From: an uncultured Candidatus Saccharibacteria bacterium
Lineage (GTDB): Bacteria > Patescibacteriota > Minisyncoccia > UBA6257
Length of the DNA: 41,196 nt
Assembly (NCBI GenBank): GCA_964441595.1
Contig: CAYTXM010000001.1
Span: 1 to 41,196, forward strand
Direction: 5' to 3'
Part shown: piece by piece, positions 14,475 through 18,901 of the stretch
How positions within the stretch are numbered: position 1 is the first letter of the stretch
Layout: each line of letters begins with the position of its first letter
Made by a program: the position numbers and the translations under genes
The notes under the pieces: model-generated
Seen by the model: the letters and a program-made list of their open reading frames with translations, nothing else
What the model was told of the DNA's origin: nothing
Database searches by the model: none

Positions 14475-15026
14475 ATGAAACAAGAACATACAAAACATAT
14501 TTTTGAAAGGCCGATTGCTATTACCGATGTTGAAACTACTGGTCTTGATTTTGCAATTCAGGAAATTGTTGAAATTGGATTGGTAATAATTAATCAGAAA
14601 ACGTTAGAGATTATAGATACTCTTGATGTTAAGGTAAAACCAGAACATATTGAAACAGCAAATGAATTCGCGCTAAAAATAAATGGGTATAATGAAACTG
14701 ATTGGAAAAATGCTATAACGCTTAAAGAAGCTATGTCTATTTATGGTGAAAAGACAAAAGACGCCATCTTCTGCGCCCATAACGTGACTTTTGATTGGTC
14801 TTTTATTTTTGAAGCGTTTAGAAAAACTGGGATTAAAAACCAAATGGATCATCATCGTATTGACCTTTTTACTATGATTTGGATGAAACTTCGAAATTCA
14901 GATTTTGAAAAATTCAGTTTAAATGAAGCGGCAAAGCGCCTTGGAGTTTCAGAAGAACCAATGCCTCACCGTGGCATTAATGGAGCAATGACTGCCTACG
15001 AAATCTACAAAAAGTTGGTTTTATAG
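14475..15026 (+). CDS. DnaQ-like DEDDh-family 3'-5' exonuclease, copy 1
   Basis: Start trimmed to MKQEHTKHIFERP. Exo I motif ITDVETTGLD, Exo II AHNVTFDWSFI, Exo III region PHRGINGAMTAYEIY. 183 aa. Confidence 0.8.
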   Translation: MKQEHTKHIFERPIAITDVETTGLDFAIQEIVEIGLVIINQKTLEIIDTLDVKVKPEHIETANEFALKINGYNETDWKNAITLKEAMSIYGEKTKDAIFCAHNVTFDWSFIFEAFRKTGIKNQMDHHRIDLFTMIWMKLRNSDFEKFSLNEAAKRLGVSEEPMPHRGINGAMTAYEIYKKLVL

Positions 15027-15059
15027 ATTTTATTATTGCTCAGTTTTTAGAATCTATCG

Positions 15060-15088
15060 TTGACTACTACGATTAAATATGTTATATT
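15060..15088 (+). promoter_or_regulatory. Sigma70-type promoter of the small-gene cassette (copy 1)
   Basis: TTGACT (15060-15065), 17 nt, TATATT (15083-15088). Confidence 0.6.
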
Positions 15089-15092
15089 TATA

Positions 15093-15197
15093 ATATTCTG
15101 TAATGGGATATTTTTAGTTCTTTGAAAAGGGTACCTTCTGATACACACAAGGAAATTGGTTATTATCTTTGTTAGTACCTAGTTTCCTGGTGTGTAT
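15093..15197 (+). promoter_or_regulatory. Structured 5' leader: short hairpin plus U-run at the predicted TSS, then a 57-nt hairpin
   Basis: ATATTC/GGATAT stem with loop TGTAATG plus TTTTT (15093-15115). ATACACACAAGGAAA (15141-15155) pairs with TTTCCTGGTGTGTAT (15183-15197) at 14 of 15 positions. Confidence 0.5.
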
Positions 15198-15228
15198 TAA
15201 TTTTATAAAAAATAGATGGAGGTGAAAT

Positions 15229-15435
15229 ATGAAAAAGTCAATTTGGGCTATTTTAGGGATTGTTTTCAATATCACAATAACGATATTTTTATTGCTAAGT
15301 TTGTTTGGTTTTGTCCCTAGTTTATCAGAAGATAATAGAGATACATTGATAATTATTATAGCAGGTCTATGGATGGTGCAAGTATTAAAGTCTGCCAGCA
15401 AAATGCATGAAGAGGAAGATGAAGATAAAAATTAA
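15229..15435 (+). CDS. Small 2-TM membrane protein with acidic C-terminal tail (holin-like architecture, unknown function)
   Basis: Strong SD GGAGGTG 5 nt before the ATG. 68 aa with two hydrophobic helices and the tail HEEEDEDKN. Identical in both repeat copies. Confidence 0.6.
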   Translation: MKKSIWAILGIVFNITITIFLLLSLFGFVPSLSEDNRDTLIIIIAGLWMVQVLKSASKMHEEEDEDKN

Positions 15436-15462
15436 AAATTTATTGAAAGGTAATGAACAAGA

Positions 15463-15669
15463 ATGAAACGGAAAGTAATTTTGTTACGAAATGATTCAAA
15501 AGAAAGCCAAAAAGCAGAAAAGATTCTAAAAGAAAATAATATTGAATATGCTCAACTTTTCAGTACCGACGGACGTTTACCATGCATAATAAGTCCTGAT
15601 CACGCGTATTCTTTTGATGGCATAGGAGGTGTTCGACTTTTTGTTAGTGGTGCTAAGACAACCAAATGA
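15463..15669 (+). CDS. NrdH/glutaredoxin-like fold protein lacking the CxxC active site (SKES instead)
   Basis: VILLRNDSKESQKAEKILKENNIEY...RLPCIISPDHAYSFDG resembles, from memory, E. coli NrdH ITIYTRNDCVQCHATKRALENRGFDF...QLPVVIAGDLSWSGF. Both cysteines are replaced by Ser. Confidence 0.45.
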   Translation: MKRKVILLRNDSKESQKAEKILKENNIEYAQLFSTDGRLPCIISPDHAYSFDGIGGVRLFVSGAKTTK

Positions 15670-15789
15670 TTTTGTTTTATCTCCGCTAAAGGAAAGAAGA
15701 TGGAAAAAGTAAAGAATAGATATAGAATTAGAGAATTATTAGTTAGATGGAGACATTATTAATGGAACAAAAAAAAGGAGGAAAAGAAA

Positions 15790-16077
15790 ATGAAAGTGTC
15801 GGTAAGAAAAATGAACGAGTTAAACAAAAAAACGAGAAAAGTATTAAAAACCCATCTTACAAAGCTTCCTGAGGATTTTCAAGAAATGTCTTGGAAAGAA
15901 TATATTGAGACCCAAGGGTTATATGGGGTGGAACAATACGTAGTCCAACCCTACACCGCATATTTTTGGATAAAGGGGAAGCTTTTTATTAAGCGTCAGG
16001 GCGATTGTCATCCGATTATACGGATTACCGATTCTAACGTATTACCCCCATATTTTCCTTTACACGATGAAGATTGA
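15790..16077 (+). CDS. Hypothetical 95-aa protein
   Basis: Strong SD AAGGAGG 9 nt upstream. No family recognised. Identical in both copies. Confidence 0.55.
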   Translation: MKVSVRKMNELNKKTRKVLKTHLTKLPEDFQEMSWKEYIETQGLYGVEQYVVQPYTAYFWIKGKLFIKRQGDCHPIIRITDSNVLPPYFPLHDED

Positions 16078-16152
16078 TCTGAAAGGATTTTCCGACCCTT
16101 TGGTAGGTGGCGTAATTTATTATTGTTACTATAAAAAAGGAGAAATGAAATT

Positions 16153-16254
16153 ATGTACGGAGAATTTCCTGTGCAACAGAGAGTCCCTTTGACTAATCAG
16201 GTAGAAACTTTAAGGATTAAAGAGGAAATGTTAAGGAAAATGATTTTTCCTTAA
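16153..16254 (+). CDS. Possible 33-aa micro-protein (MYGEFPVQQRVPLTNQVETLRIKEEMLRKMIFP)
   Basis: AAGGAG about 10 nt upstream. The ORF ends just before the cassette terminator. It is below the ORF-track cutoff. Confidence 0.3.
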   Translation: MYGEFPVQQRVPLTNQVETLRIKEEMLRKMIFP

Positions 16255-16284
16255 ATTAAGTTTATAGTTTAATAAACTTAGAAG

Positions 16285-16316
16285 AAAACCCCATTTTTTA
16301 AATGGGGTTTTATATT
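16285..16316 (+). terminator. Rho-independent terminator of the cassette operon (copy 1)
   Basis: AAAACCCCAT-TTTTTA-ATGGGGTTTT followed by TATATTT. Confidence 0.75.
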
Positions 16317-16567
16317 TAAAATCTGATTTCATTTATCAATTTTATAAACAGATTTTAATATTGTCAGTAATTGGAATCAGGCTCCCAACCTGCAGGCAGA
16401 ATTTTAGTTCAAATTGAGTTGTTTTTAGCTGATATTGACCTAAATAGATTTTGTTTGTAAAATATATTATAGGAAATAAAGTTAATAAAGAATTATTAAT
16501 TAATATGCAATATTTAAAAGAAAATGAAAATTAATATGTTGTATTCAGAAGAAAACGAATGTTAGAA

Positions 16568-17334: not shown

Positions 17335-17338
17335 TATA

Positions 17339-17443
17339 ATATTCTGTAATGGGATATTTTTAGTTCTTTGAAAAGGGTACCTTCTGATACACACAAGGAA
17401 ATTGGTTATTATCTTTGTTAGTACCTAGTTTCCTGGTGTGTAT
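17339..17443 (+). promoter_or_regulatory. Structured 5' leader (copy 2)
   Basis: Identical to 15093-15197. Confidence 0.5.
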
Positions 17444-17474
17444 TAATTTTATAAAAAATAGATGGAGGTGAAAT

Positions 17475-17681
17475 ATGAAAAAGTCAATTTGGGCTATTTT
17501 AGGGATTGTTTTCAATATCACAATAACGATATTTTTATTGCTAAGTTTGTTTGGTTTTGTCCCTAGTTTATCAGAAGATAATAGAGATACATTGATAATT
17601 ATTATAGCAGGTCTATGGATGGTGCAAGTATTAAAGTCTGCCAGCAAAATGCATGAAGAGGAAGATGAAGATAAAAATTAA
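17475..17681 (+). CDS. Small 2-TM membrane protein (copy 2)
   Basis: Identical to 15229-15435. Confidence 0.6.
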   Translation: MKKSIWAILGIVFNITITIFLLLSLFGFVPSLSEDNRDTLIIIIAGLWMVQVLKSASKMHEEEDEDKN

Positions 17682-17708
17682 AAATTTATTGAAAGGTAAT
17701 GAACAAGA

Positions 17709-17915
17709 ATGAAACGGAAAGTAATTTTGTTACGAAATGATTCAAAAGAAAGCCAAAAAGCAGAAAAGATTCTAAAAGAAAATAATATTGAATATGCTCA
17801 ACTTTTCAGTACCGACGGACGTTTACCATGCATAATAAGTCCTGATCACGCGTATTCTTTTGATGGCATAGGAGGTGTTCGACTTTTTGTTAGTGGTGCT
17901 AAGACAACCAAATGA
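17709..17915 (+). CDS. Cysteine-less NrdH/glutaredoxin-like protein (copy 2)
   Basis: Identical to 15463-15669. Confidence 0.45.
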   Translation: MKRKVILLRNDSKESQKAEKILKENNIEYAQLFSTDGRLPCIISPDHAYSFDGIGGVRLFVSGAKTTK

Positions 17916-18035
17916 TTTTGTTTTATCTCCGCTAAAGGAAAGAAGATGGAAAAAGTAAAGAATAGATATAGAATTAGAGAATTATTAGTTAGATGGAGAC
18001 ATTATTAATGGAACAAAAAAAAGGAGGAAAAGAAA

Positions 18036-18323
18036 ATGAAAGTGTCGGTAAGAAAAATGAACGAGTTAAACAAAAAAACGAGAAAAGTATTAAAAACCCA
18101 TCTTACAAAGCTTCCTGAGGATTTTCAAGAAATGTCTTGGAAAGAATATATTGAGACCCAAGGGTTATATGGGGTGGAACAATACGTAGTCCAACCCTAC
18201 ACCGCATATTTTTGGATAAAGGGGAAGCTTTTTATTAAGCGTCAGGGCGATTGTCATCCGATTATACGGATTACCGATTCTAACGTATTACCCCCATATT
18301 TTCCTTTACACGATGAAGATTGA
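18036..18323 (+). CDS. Hypothetical 95-aa protein (copy 2)
   Basis: Identical to 15790-16077. Confidence 0.55.
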   Translation: MKVSVRKMNELNKKTRKVLKTHLTKLPEDFQEMSWKEYIETQGLYGVEQYVVQPYTAYFWIKGKLFIKRQGDCHPIIRITDSNVLPPYFPLHDED

Positions 18324-18398
18324 TCTGAAAGGATTTTCCGACCCTTTGGTAGGTGGCGTAATTTATTATTGTTACTATAAAAAAGGAGAAATGAAATT

Positions 18399-18500
18399 AT
18401 GTACGGAGAATTTCCTGTGCAACAGAGAGTCCCTTTGACTAATCAGGTAGAAACTTTAAGGATTAAAGAGGAAATGTTAAGGAAAATGATTTTTCCTTAA
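18399..18500 (+). CDS. Possible 33-aa micro-protein (copy 2)
   Basis: Identical to 16153-16254. Confidence 0.3.
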   Translation: MYGEFPVQQRVPLTNQVETLRIKEEMLRKMIFP

Positions 18501-18530
18501 ATTAAGTTTATAGTTTAATAAACTTAGAAG

Positions 18531-18562
18531 AAAACCCCATTTTTTAAATGGGGTTTTATATT
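18531..18562 (+). terminator. Cassette terminator (copy 2)
   Basis: Identical to 16285-16316. Confidence 0.75.
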
Positions 18563-18813
18563 TAAAATCTGATTTCATTTATCAATTTTATAAACAGATT
18601 TTAATATTGTCAGTAATTGGAATCAGGCTCCCAACCTGCAGGCAGAATTTTAGTTCAAATTGAGTTGTTTTTAGCTGATATTGACCTAAATAGATTTTGT
18701 TTGTAAAATATATTATAGGAAATAAAGTTAATAAAGAATTATTAATTAATATGCAATATTTAAAAGAAAATGAAAATTAATATGTTGTATTCAGAAGAAA
18801 ACGAATGTTAGAA

Positions 18814-18881
18814 GCTGGATAATATAGTTATTTTAAGTTATCCACAATTTACTTGACTTAAATAATTTTTATTGGTAGAGT
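18814..18881 (+). promoter_or_regulatory. DnaA-box pair plus outward promoter (copy 2)
   Basis: TTATCCACA at 18838-18846. TTGACT 18853-18858. -10 at 18876-18881. Confidence 0.5.
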
Positions 18882-18901
18882 ATATTATAGAAAATTAAAA
18901 C

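What the first reader, a model, noticed from the sequence alone, without database searches (positions are those of the whole stretch)
14475..18894. 2,246-bp tandem duplication with an abrupt identity step (about 86% to apparently 100%) inside a DEDDh exonuclease gene
Four ORF starts recur at exactly +2246 (14475/16721, 15229/17475, 15463/17709, 15790/18036). By hand alignment, the first ~213 nt of the two exonuclease genes differ at about 29 positions, giving about 10 amino-acid changes. The last mismatch is at 14687/16933. After that I find no difference through 16648/18894, about 1.96 kb including all non-coding sequence. Upstream of the two ATGs only an 11-mer (ATTTTAGGTTA, 14407 and 16662) survives, displaced by 9 nt. 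A simple recent duplication would be uniformly identical and an old one uniformly diverged. The mosaic therefore points to one of three things: an old duplication whose 3' 2 kb was recently homogenised by gene conversion; amplification by recombination between two alleles; or a strain-mixture or assembly artefact. The unit contains everything that is atypical for this genome (see the other findings), so copy-number change may be functional.
Basis: seen in the sequence. Interest (0 to 1): 0.7.

Follow-up and report, generated by a model that had tools for sequence, protein, structure and literature searches.

The report
Recent tandem duplication joining two haplotypes
A 2.2-kb stretch (a small exonuclease gene plus four tiny orphan genes) lies twice in a row in this candidate-phyla-radiation bacterial contig. 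The join point and the sharp identity step come from ordinary processes: a slip at an 8-base match, and recombination between two strain variants. The doubled form appears only in this one assembly.

Summary
Window 14475-16650 recurs at 16721-18896 (offset 2246). There are 29 differences in the first 213 nt of the exonuclease gene, then 1,963 nt with none.

The 70-nt junction is the last 16 codons plus spacer of a GNAT acetyltransferase gene. That gene sits directly upstream of the exonuclease in related Patescibacteria. The remnant is fused to the end of the unit inside an 8-nt microhomology (AGAAAATT). This is the signature of a microhomology-mediated tandem duplication.

The identity step is a homologous-recombination breakpoint between two locus haplotypes:
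- The copy-1 5' end and its upstream region are of the "rpsP-exo" type.
- The copy-2 5' end and its upstream region are of the "GNAT-exo" type.
- Almost all 29 differences are polymorphisms shared with relatives.
- The two 5' ends are not each other's closest relatives.
- About 27 distinct related loci carry one copy each.

An old duplication followed by gene conversion is therefore disfavoured.

An independent JGI contig confirms the mosaic copy-1 gene. However, three independent assemblies of the same population run from the unit's end into the right flank without a break. The junction and copy 2 are seen only in this NCBI contig. The duplication is therefore either a rare variant or a strain-mixed assembly path. 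Read mapping is needed to decide. Interest is low to moderate.

The parts
13823..14404 (+). rpsP (ribosomal protein S16 with a Lys/Glu-rich tail). It is the left conserved anchor of the locus.
   Evidence: Pfam Ribosomal_S16, E = 1e-13. Synteny gyrB-rpsP-...-exo in relatives.
14405..14474 (+). up1, the spacer upstream of copy 1. It holds the rpsP terminator hairpin (14433-14453 plus a T-run) and an extended -10 promoter TGgTATAAT (14456-14464) that leads directly to the exoA ATG.
   Evidence: The same architecture is found in relatives L030, L033, L031, L023 and L027. It is identical in the independent contigs L002 and L051.
14475..15026 (+). exoA, a 183-aa RNase_T/DnaQ-like 3'-5' exonuclease (copy 1). 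It is a mosaic gene.
   Evidence: Pfam PF00929, E = 7e-21. Independent JGI contig L051 carries the same gene, with all 29 A-type sites joined to the shared 3' part.
14475..14687 (+). A5', the diverged 5' segment of copy 1 (29 differences from copy 2). It is an allele of the rpsP-exo haplotype and is closest to L030/L033.
   Evidence: dN/dS = 0.12 and dS = 0.57.
14688..16650 (+). S, copy 1 of the 1,963-nt block that is identical in both units. It contains the exo 3' part, a promoter at 15060-15088, a structured 5'UTR, genes for a 68-aa membrane protein (15229-15435), a 68-aa protein (15463-15669), a 95-aa orphan (15790-16077) and a 33-aa ORF (16153-16254), a terminator at 16285-16311, promoter P1 at 16435-16463, two tiny ORFs, and promoter P2 at 16607-16635.
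   Evidence: The cargo proteins have no family match. The 95-aa protein has only 3 representative clusters among 1.84 billion.
16643..16650 (+). The join point: the 8-nt microhomology AGAAAATT. It is shared by the sequence just downstream of P2 and by the 3' end of the GNAT gene of relatives.
   Evidence: Alignment of the junction with L008/L005 (GNAT-exo) and with the native end of copy 2.
16643..16693 (+). Remnant of a GNAT acetyltransferase gene: the last 16 codons (RKFGFFNFRLKMRLDL) and the stop codon.
   Evidence: The 78-nt stretch 16643-16720 (remnant plus spacer) is 95-96% identical to the 78 nt upstream of exo in L005-L009. No full-length GNAT of this type is in the window.
16651..16720 (+). 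J, the 70 nt between the two units. It is not repeated elsewhere in the window.
   Evidence: It is absent from all 50 loci held at that point.
16721..17272 (+). exoB, a 183-aa exonuclease (copy 2). It is phylogenetically coherent along its length and is of the GNAT-exo haplotype type.
   Evidence: Pfam PF00929, E = 4e-19. Its 5' part is nearest the L008/L020/L003/L023 group in 94% of bootstraps, and its 3' part is nearest that group in 65%.
16934..18896 (+). S, copy 2 of the identical block. It ends at the native AGAAAATT (18889-18896).
   Evidence: The continuity across 18896/18897 is the ancestral arrangement, as seen in L011, L008, L028 and L046.
18897..19017 (+). Conserved structured leader between P2 and the 181-aa membrane-protein gene. 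It forms the right border of the duplication and is not part of the repeat.
   Evidence: 86-98% identical in relatives. A 29-bp helix is 98.3% paired, with 5 pairs changed on both sides.

Best explanation
The contig comes from a Patescibacteria (CPR) bacterium. The locus lies about 12 kb from dnaA. There a small exonuclease gene is a conserved anchor between two hypervariable islands.

Step 1 is inferred from the junction. A chromosome with the architecture GNAT-exo-cargo-P2-leader underwent illegitimate recombination between two AGAAAATT octamers 2,246 bp apart. One octamer lies 16 codons before the GNAT stop codon. The other lies just downstream of promoter P2. The result is a head-to-tail duplication whose second unit starts with a GNAT stump.

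Step 2 is inferred from phylogeny. RecA-type homologous recombination with a second haplotype of the same locus (rpsP directly followed by exo, with no GNAT) had one crossover inside the exonuclease gene, between 14687 and the next informative site. Everything to the left of that point, including the first 213 nt of copy 1, therefore carries a different and about 14% diverged allele. The order of the two steps cannot be told. Nor can it be told which side was donor.

The consequences are also inferred. There are two intact exonuclease genes that differ at 10 of their first 71 residues. exoA is read from its own TGnTATAAT promoter. exoB is newly placed about 80 nt downstream of P2. The four small orphan genes are present in double dose. 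The 100% identity simply reflects the youth of the duplication.
For: Repeat and step.

Junction: window 16643-16720 is 95-96% identical to the 78 nt upstream of exo in L005-L009, that is, the GNAT 3' end plus spacer. The two homologies overlap in exactly AGAAAATT. The remnant translates to the GNAT C-terminus. The transition from the end of copy 2 into the leader, and from up1 into exoA, are both collinear with single-copy relatives.

One copy in relatives: about 27 distinct related exo-bearing loci (duplicate fetches of the same contigs excluded) have one copy each, from genome and metagenome scans.

Two haplotypes:
- The up1 plus A5' architecture is that of L030/L033/L031/L023/L027. The J plus B5' architecture is that of L008/L018/L024/L005/L032.
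- B5' is nearest the L008 group in 94% of bootstraps. A5' is nearest the L030 group (54%) and is never sister to B5'. The shared 3' part is nearest the L008 group in 65% of bootstraps and the L030 group in 0.3%.
- 26-27 of the 29 differences are alleles shared with relatives.
- dN/dS is 0.12.
- exoA and exoB fall in different 90% clusters.

The exonuclease gene of relatives is itself mosaic. The correlation of 5' and 3' distances is 0.58. For example, L008 versus L018 differ by 8.5% in the 5' part and 2.7% in the 3' part.

The islands on both sides of exo differ between relatives. They hold SMODS/SLATT, HD, GNAT, a methyltransferase and ParE.

recA, ruvC and ssb are present in the window, and no transposase or integrase is.

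The independent contig L051 carries the same mosaic exoA across 14687/14688.

Precise tandem duplication at 9-bp microhomologies, with promoter capture at the join point, is documented in E. coli (PMC11111574).
Against: The junction J and exoB are found only in this NCBI contig.

Three independent assemblies of the same population at 99.5-99.96% identity run from the end of S straight into the leader with no break. They are Logan SRR8556428 (L001), Logan SRR8556479 (L054) and JGI 3300031369 (L053). A fixed duplication would force a branch there. The duplicated form is therefore absent or rare in those samples.

No read or depth data could be examined. Exact identity of the two S copies could come from a collapsed graph node. 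The placement of A5' with the L030 group has only moderate support (54%). The flanks are about equally distant (80-86%) from all available relatives, so the second crossover could not be located.
Confidence: 0.55

Rival explanations
1. The contig follows a strain-mixed assembly path. The junction molecule exists, but the contig joins pieces of two co-occurring strains. Strain X would be the single-copy haplotype rpsP-up1-exoA-cargo-P2-leader seen in the other samples. Strain Y would carry J-exoB, either as a B/B tandem duplication behind an intact GNAT or as a deletion variant in which a P2-bearing module abuts the GNAT stump. The assembler threaded all nodes of the loop once. The 'identity step inside one tandem pair' would then be a between-strain difference.
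For: exoB and J occur only in the NCBI contig. Three other assemblies reconstruct a single-copy haplotype with exoA and show no branch at the end of S. Microdiversity is evident in the same samples. There are 5-8 SNPs in 15847-16007. Contig ends recur at 15099 in two Logan assemblies and at 16115-16118 in a Logan and a JGI assembly. There is a gap covering 14482-15098 in SRR8556428. A 1,963-nt exact repeat cannot be resolved by short reads except by graph traversal.
Against: Eight nucleotides of microhomology cannot create junction k-mers at any usual k, so a molecule with P2-end|GNAT-stump must exist. No relative has a P2-like element in the left island, which makes the deletion-variant form unlikely. 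No GNAT body is present in the window. Even under this rival, a duplication or a rearrangement, and the recombination breakpoint in exo, are real.
Confidence: 0.3
2. The duplication is old, and its 3' 2 kb has been homogenised by gene conversion (concerted evolution). The 5' 213 nt and the upstream regions escaped conversion and diverged in place.
For: Identity changes abruptly and extends exactly to the end of the repeat unit. Both copies are intact and the diverged part is under purifying selection.
Against: The diverged 5' parts are not sister sequences. B5' is 93-94% identical to orthologues of other genomes and 86% identical to A5'. The differences are shared polymorphisms, not private substitutions. 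All of the roughly 27 distinct related loci, and three assemblies of the same population, have one copy. The two upstream regions belong to two different pre-existing architectures and are not diverged copies of one.
Confidence: 0.07
3. A 2,246-bp circular molecule (J + exoB 5' + S) coexists with a single-copy chromosome. It could have been excised from a duplication, or it could be a small element. It would give the same assembly graph as a tandem duplication.
For: The graph topologies are indistinguishable without reads. The other samples look single-copy.
Against: The unit has no replication, mobilisation or recombinase gene. There is no relative among viral contigs. A circle with a gene stump at its closure is best explained as a by-product of the tandem duplication itself.
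Confidence: 0.03

Closest known systems
Microhomology-mediated (RecA-independent) tandem duplication in bacteria, with promoter capture at the join point (Li & Bock 2019, PMC6614815; TDAH system, PMC11111574)
   Same: It is a head-to-tail repeat with a single new join lying in a short (8-9 nt) microhomology. No mobile element is involved. The join places a gene (exoB) behind a promoter (P2) that normally drives something else.
   Different: Here it is seen in an uncultivated CPR genome, without any known selection. The two copies are not identical throughout. Physical proof from reads is lacking.
Mosaic genes produced by homologous recombination between diverged alleles at a conserved anchor beside a variable island. 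This rests on general knowledge of island replacement by flanking homology. Intragenic mosaic examples are reviewed in PMC4437187.
   Same: There is an abrupt switch of phylogenetic affinity inside a conserved gene. The differences are shared polymorphisms. The islands differ on each side. The recombination genes recA and ruvC are present.
   Different: The breakpoint lies in one copy of a fresh tandem duplication. It therefore shows up as an identity step between neighbouring paralogues rather than between strains.
Homology-facilitated illegitimate recombination (de Vries & Wackernagel 2002, from my own knowledge; discussed in PMC6382021)
   Same: One event with a homologous anchor (leader/181-aa gene) and a microhomology join could insert J-exoB-S from a GNAT-exo donor behind P2 of an rpsP-exo recipient. 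That would give exactly this structure.
   Different: This would require donor and recipient to be already identical over S. It cannot be told apart from duplication followed by allele replacement with the present data.
Concerted evolution of tandem paralogues by gene conversion
   Same: It produces identical cores with diverged edges.
   Different: It predicts sister 5' ends and a duplication shared with relatives. Both predictions were tested here and not met.

Membership tests
Microhomology-mediated tandem duplication | Direct head-to-tail repeat with one novel join. The sequence on each side of the join is collinear with the single-copy arrangement. | tested here: met
   The unit is 2,246 bp. 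J continues the GNAT-exo arrangement of relatives, and the end of copy 2 continues the P2-leader arrangement of relatives.
Microhomology-mediated tandem duplication | Short microhomology at the join point, with no long repeat or mobile element at the unit ends. | tested here: met
   The 8-nt AGAAAATT lies at 16643-16650 and 18889-18896 and also in the GNAT 3' end of L008/L005. No transposase or integrase was found in the window. No inverted repeats lie at the unit ends.
Microhomology-mediated tandem duplication | Physical support: reads across the join, and double depth over the unit. | not testable with these tools
   No reads are available. Indirectly, three independent assemblies lack a branch at the unit end, and the junction was seen only in this contig.
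Homologous-recombination mosaic (allele replacement) | Phylogenetic incongruence across the breakpoint. | tested here: met
   A5' groups with L030/L033/L031. B5' and the shared 3' part group with L008/L020/L003/L023. exoA and exoB are in different 90% clusters.
Homologous-recombination mosaic (allele replacement) | The differences are pre-existing polymorphisms and the mosaic is reproducible. | tested here: met
   26-27 of the 29 sites carry an allele found in relatives. The independent JGI contig L051 has the same mosaic exoA.
Old paralogues under gene conversion | The unconverted parts are sister sequences, and the duplication is shared by relatives. | tested here: not met
DEDDh exonuclease (Pfam RNase_T, PF00929) | A profile match above the curated cut-off. 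| tested here: met
   76 and 70 bits against a cut-off of 24. The nearest solved structures are the DinG, PolC and DnaQ exonuclease domains.
DEDDh exonuclease (Pfam RNase_T, PF00929) | Catalytic residues: D-x-E (Exo I), D (Exo II) and H-x4-D (Exo III). | tested here: not met
   Exo I (ITDVETTG) and Exo II (HNVTFD) are present. Exo III reads H-R-G-I-N-G where PolC has H-R-A-L-D-D and DinG has H-R-A-D-E-D. The His is kept, the last Asp is Gly, and Asn sits one position earlier. The same holds in all close relatives. The protein belongs to the superfamily, but the full DEDDh motif is not met.
Mobile element or integron-like cassette | A recombinase, transposase or integrase, or terminal repeats or att sites at the unit ends. 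| tested here: not met
   No such gene is in the 41-kb window. PHROGs and PADLOC match only the generic exonuclease. Nothing was found in viral contigs.

The most novel reading that the evidence does not exclude
The exonuclease gene may anchor a two-sided cassette-exchange hotspot near oriC of these Patescibacteria. In this reading, small promoter-plus-orphan-gene modules are swapped between co-occurring strains at recurrent boundaries lying just downstream of conserved promoters (15099, 16116, 16650/18896). The right border would be a conserved, previously undescribed 120-nt structured leader RNA. The tandem duplication would be a caught-in-the-act intermediate of module gain that is kept because it rewires exoB and the cargo to promoter P2.
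Probability: 0.12. Interest if true: 0.55.

Novelty: new member of a known kind. Interest (0 to 1): 0.3.

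Why it matters
The finding is a clean and fully dissectable example of how gene content changes in the small, mobile-element-poor genomes of CPR bacteria. 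One illegitimate join at an 8-nt microhomology and one homologous crossover in an anchor gene are enough to explain it. No new mechanism is needed.

It also carries a practical warning. An apparent 'mosaic duplication' in a MAG can be a mixture of haplotypes, and the exact identity of the repeat may come from the assembler.

The more useful by-products are two. First, the exonuclease gene lies between two hypervariable islands that carry defence-type genes in relatives. Second, a conserved structured leader RNA lies at the right border of the duplication.

Tried and rejected
Searches for the same junction elsewhere:
- Neither exoB nor exoA could be looked up by the look-up of encoding contigs.
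- A search with the N-terminal 80 aa, meant to catch cut gene fragments on short contigs, gave nothing useful.
- The junction 36-mer is absent from all fetched loci.
- The genome-contig scan did not contain this species.
- The viral-contig scan was empty.

Function of the cargo:
- Pfam, PHROGs, PADLOC and NCBIfam gave no hits.
- A full HMMER scan of 1.84 billion representatives found only 3 clusters for the 95-aa protein.
- Copy number as a functional change is therefore unsupported.

RNA and tRNA:
- Rfam gave nothing at gathering or at E <= 1 in 14400-19100, apart from two weak chance-level matches.
- No tRNA lies at the borders.

Locating the second crossover:
- Flank identity to relatives is flat at 80-86%.
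- SNPs against L002 are scattered.

Other tests:
- The breakpoint does not lie at an unusually conserved block of the gene.
- The 11-mer upstream 'homology' is rejected as a chance match.
- The GNAT at 23244-23576 is not the source of the stump. It is only 35% identical at the protein level over a 72-residue local alignment.
- A literature search for the run accession found nothing.

Full report
**What is there**

The window is a complete 41,196-bp NCBI contig of a Patescibacteria/Parcubacteria-type bacterium. It carries the origin region (rnpA, yidC, dnaA, dnaN) and housekeeping genes that include recA, ruvC and ssb.

The order at the locus is pheT, gyrB, rpsP (13823-14404), exoA (14475-15026), four small genes, two promoter modules, exoB (16721-17272), the same four genes and promoters, then a structured leader. 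After that come a gene for a 181-aa membrane protein (19018) and one for a 1,165-aa lamin-tail-domain protein.

**Check of the observation**

At an offset of exactly 2,246 nt, 14475-14687 differs from 16721-16933 at 29 positions, the last being 14687. Then 14688-16650 is identical to 16934-18896 over 1,963 nt. Similarity stops at 16650/18896. The step is far beyond chance (about 1e-125 under the 5' rate; Fisher p = 9e-31).

The 29 differences give 10 amino-acid changes, with dN/dS = 0.12 and dS = 0.57. Both 5' ends are therefore functional alleles that separated long ago. They are not sequencing errors or decay.

**The junction explains the duplication**

The 70 nt between the units are not random spacer. 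Window 16643-16720 is 95-96% identical to the 78 nt that precede the exonuclease gene in relatives L005-L009. Those 78 nt are the last 16 codons of a GNAT acetyltransferase gene plus the spacer. The remnant translates to RKFGFFNFRLKMRLDL*, against RKFGFFDFRLKMRLDL* in L008.

In the alignment, the end of the unit reads ...TATTATAGAAAATT. The GNAT gene of relatives reads ...CCTGGAGAAAATTTGGTTTTTTT. The two homologies overlap in exactly AGAAAATT, at 16643-16650. At the end of copy 2 the same octamer continues into the leader, as it does in single-copy relatives.

Taken together, there is one novel join in an 8-nt microhomology, both sides are collinear with the ancestral arrangement, and no transposase, integrase or terminal repeats are present. 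This is the signature of a microhomology-mediated tandem duplication in an ancestor with the order GNAT-exo-cargo-P2-leader. Such precise duplications at 9-bp microhomologies, which also place a gene behind a foreign promoter, are documented experimentally in E. coli (PMC11111574).

The join lies about 8-15 nt after the -10 element of promoter P2 (TTGACT-17-TAGAGT, 16607-16635). exoB is therefore now downstream of P2. This last point is an inference.

**The identity step is a recombination breakpoint between two haplotypes**

About 27 distinct related exo-bearing loci (repeat fetches of the same contigs excluded) were obtained from exact-protein look-ups and from scans of GTDB genomes and JGI metagenomes. 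All carry one exonuclease gene. They fall into different architectures:
- rpsP-terminator-TGgTATAAT-ATG with no further spacer (L030, L033, L031, L023, L027).
- The same with an extra 44 nt (L003, L025, L036, L037).
- GNAT-exo (L005, L008, L018, L024, L032).

Copy 1 of the window has the first architecture and copy 2 has the third.

The 5' 213 nt of exoB is 93-94% identical to the L008/L020/L003 group and is nearest that group in 94% of bootstraps. The shared 3' part is nearest the same group in 65% of bootstraps. The 5' part of exoA is closest to L030/L033 (91%; nearest that group in 54% of bootstraps). Those relatives have the most distant 3' parts (82-84%).

At 26-27 of the 29 differing sites, the relatives carry either the A or the B base. 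The two proteins even fall into different 90%-identity clusters. exoB is thus coherent along its length, and exoA is a chimera.

The same kind of mosaicism is common in this gene among relatives. The 5' and 3' distances correlate at only 0.58. L008 and L018 differ by 8.5% in the 5' part and 2.7% in the 3' part. L003 and L008 differ by 4.2% and 11.2%. This fits the gene's position as a conserved anchor between two islands whose content changes from genome to genome: SMODS/SLATT, HD, GNAT, a methyltransferase with HTH genes, ParE, or nothing at all as in L011.

Replacing an island by homologous recombination requires a crossover in the anchor. Here that crossover fell at 14687/14688.

**Independent assemblies**

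Contigs of the same population (99.5-99.96% identity) exist in three other assemblies.
- JGI 3300031369 contig L051 covers 14409-16115. It has up1 and all 29 A-type sites. It runs straight across 14687/14688 into the shared block, with SNPs only in 15847-16007. The mosaic exoA is therefore real and is not an artefact of this contig.
- JGI contig L053 (16118/18364 to 20101), Logan SRR8556479 contig L054 and Logan SRR8556428 contig L001 all run from the end of the unit into the leader without a break. With a fixed duplication, a short-read graph must branch there.
- exoB and the junction are recorded only from the NCBI contig.

The three samples therefore look like the single-copy haplotype rpsP-exoA-cargo-P2-leader. 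The duplicated form is either a rare or sample-specific variant, or a path that the assembler threaded through two strains.

Eight nucleotides of microhomology cannot produce false junction k-mers. A molecule with P2-end fused to the GNAT stump must therefore exist. What cannot be shown here is that it sits behind exoA on the same chromosome, or that the two S copies are truly identical rather than collapsed.

Recurrent contig ends suggest further haplotypes in the population. Ends fall at 15099 in two Logan assemblies and at 16115-16118 in a Logan and a JGI assembly. There is also an unassembled stretch at 14482-15098 in SRR8556428. I could not resolve these.

**Verdict on the explanations**

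- Best (0.55): a recent microhomology-mediated tandem duplication plus one homologous crossover between two locus haplotypes, in either order. A single homology-facilitated illegitimate insertion between two haplotypes that already shared S would give the same result.
- Rival (0.30): the same two haplotypes and the same junction, but joined in one contig only by the assembler.
- An old duplication with gene conversion (0.07): contradicted by the non-sister 5' ends, the shared polymorphisms, the two distinct upstream architectures and the single copy everywhere else.
- A 2.2-kb circle (0.03): gives the same graph but has no replication functions.

**Function**

The exonuclease is a DnaQ/PolC/DinG-type RNase_T domain. 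The four cargo proteins have no family match, and the 95-aa one is nearly an orphan. Nothing supports a functional role for the copy-number change beyond the inferred rewiring of exoB to P2 and the double dose of the cargo.

**Novelty and interest**

Both processes are textbook. The case is a new and well-resolved instance in a CPR genome, with an unresolved question of assembly. Interest is 0.3.

Noticed in passing
window 18888-19017 (+), directly after the end of copy 2: A leader of about 120 nt lies between promoter P2 and the gene for the 181-aa membrane protein. It is 86-98% identical in relatives whose neighbouring genes are only 80-84% identical. It forms a 29-bp helix (18922-18950 with 18971-18999) that is 98.3% paired across 12 distinct sequences, with 5 pairs changed on both sides. 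An earlier-forming alternative is a 13-bp stem (AAAACGGUGGGG/CCCCACCGUUUU) followed by a U-run, which looks like a terminator. There is no Rfam match. In L008/L021, L011/L046 and L016 the element occurs twice, flanking an inserted stretch that in L008/L021 is a ParE-type toxin-antitoxin cassette.
   Followed up: partly
window 14964-14981 and 17210-17227 (Exo III motif of exoA and exoB): The motif reads H-R-G-I-N-G where DnaQ, PolC and DinG exonucleases have H-x4-D. The last catalytic Asp of DEDDh is Gly, with Asn one position earlier. This holds in the whole clade of close relatives. Some relatives carry split exo genes that look like pseudogenes (P0136/P0154 and P0133/P0145). The gene may therefore be dispensable or have altered chemistry.
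   Followed up: partly
relatives L005/L010 (4267-7973), L008 (3092-4647 and 5454-7295), L003 (5396-6004), L011: The stretches between rpsP and exo, and between exo and the 181-aa gene, are hypervariable islands. Their content includes SMODS+SLATT (CBASS-like), an HD protein, GNAT, a DNA methyltransferase with HTH genes, and a ParE toxin. L011 has almost nothing there.
   Followed up: partly
window 15099 and 16116-16118; L001, L051, L052, L053: Contigs from independent assemblies start or end at the same two points. These points bound a 1,018-bp module (5'UTR plus three small genes). L051 and L052 carry 5-8 SNPs clustered in 15847-16007, inside the 95-aa gene. In SRR8556428 the stretch 14482-15098, essentially the exo gene, is missing between two contigs. 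This suggests further co-occurring haplotypes.
   Followed up: partly
window 15138-15200 (and 17384-17446): A long imperfect hairpin lies in the 5'UTR of the 68-aa membrane-protein gene (fold z-score -4.0). A related upstream region (about 80% identical over 45-130 nt) precedes the unrelated GNAT gene at 23244 and its counterpart in L003.
   Followed up: no
window 16435-16477 and 16607-16649 (and the same positions +2246): Two 43-nt promoter modules, P1 and P2, are 76-80% alike beyond the -35 and -10 hexamers. P1 is followed by two tandem 31-nt units, each with a 9-codon ORF (MQYLKENEN and MLYSEENEC), and by a hairpin. Similar modules recur in the right islands of relatives.
   Followed up: no
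window 13235 (gyrB); L005/L010, L008, L020, L036: The gyrB gene of several relatives carries an intein (Intein_splicing and LAGLIDADG hits; a 1.5-1.8 kb insertion at the point matching window 13235). The window's gyrB has none.
   Followed up: no
window 1-4700: The contig holds the replication-origin region: yidC and rnpA on the minus strand, then dnaA, dnaN and a DciA-like gene on the plus strand. The GC-skew switch lies nearby, so the duplicated locus is about 12 kb from dnaA on the leading strand.
   Followed up: no
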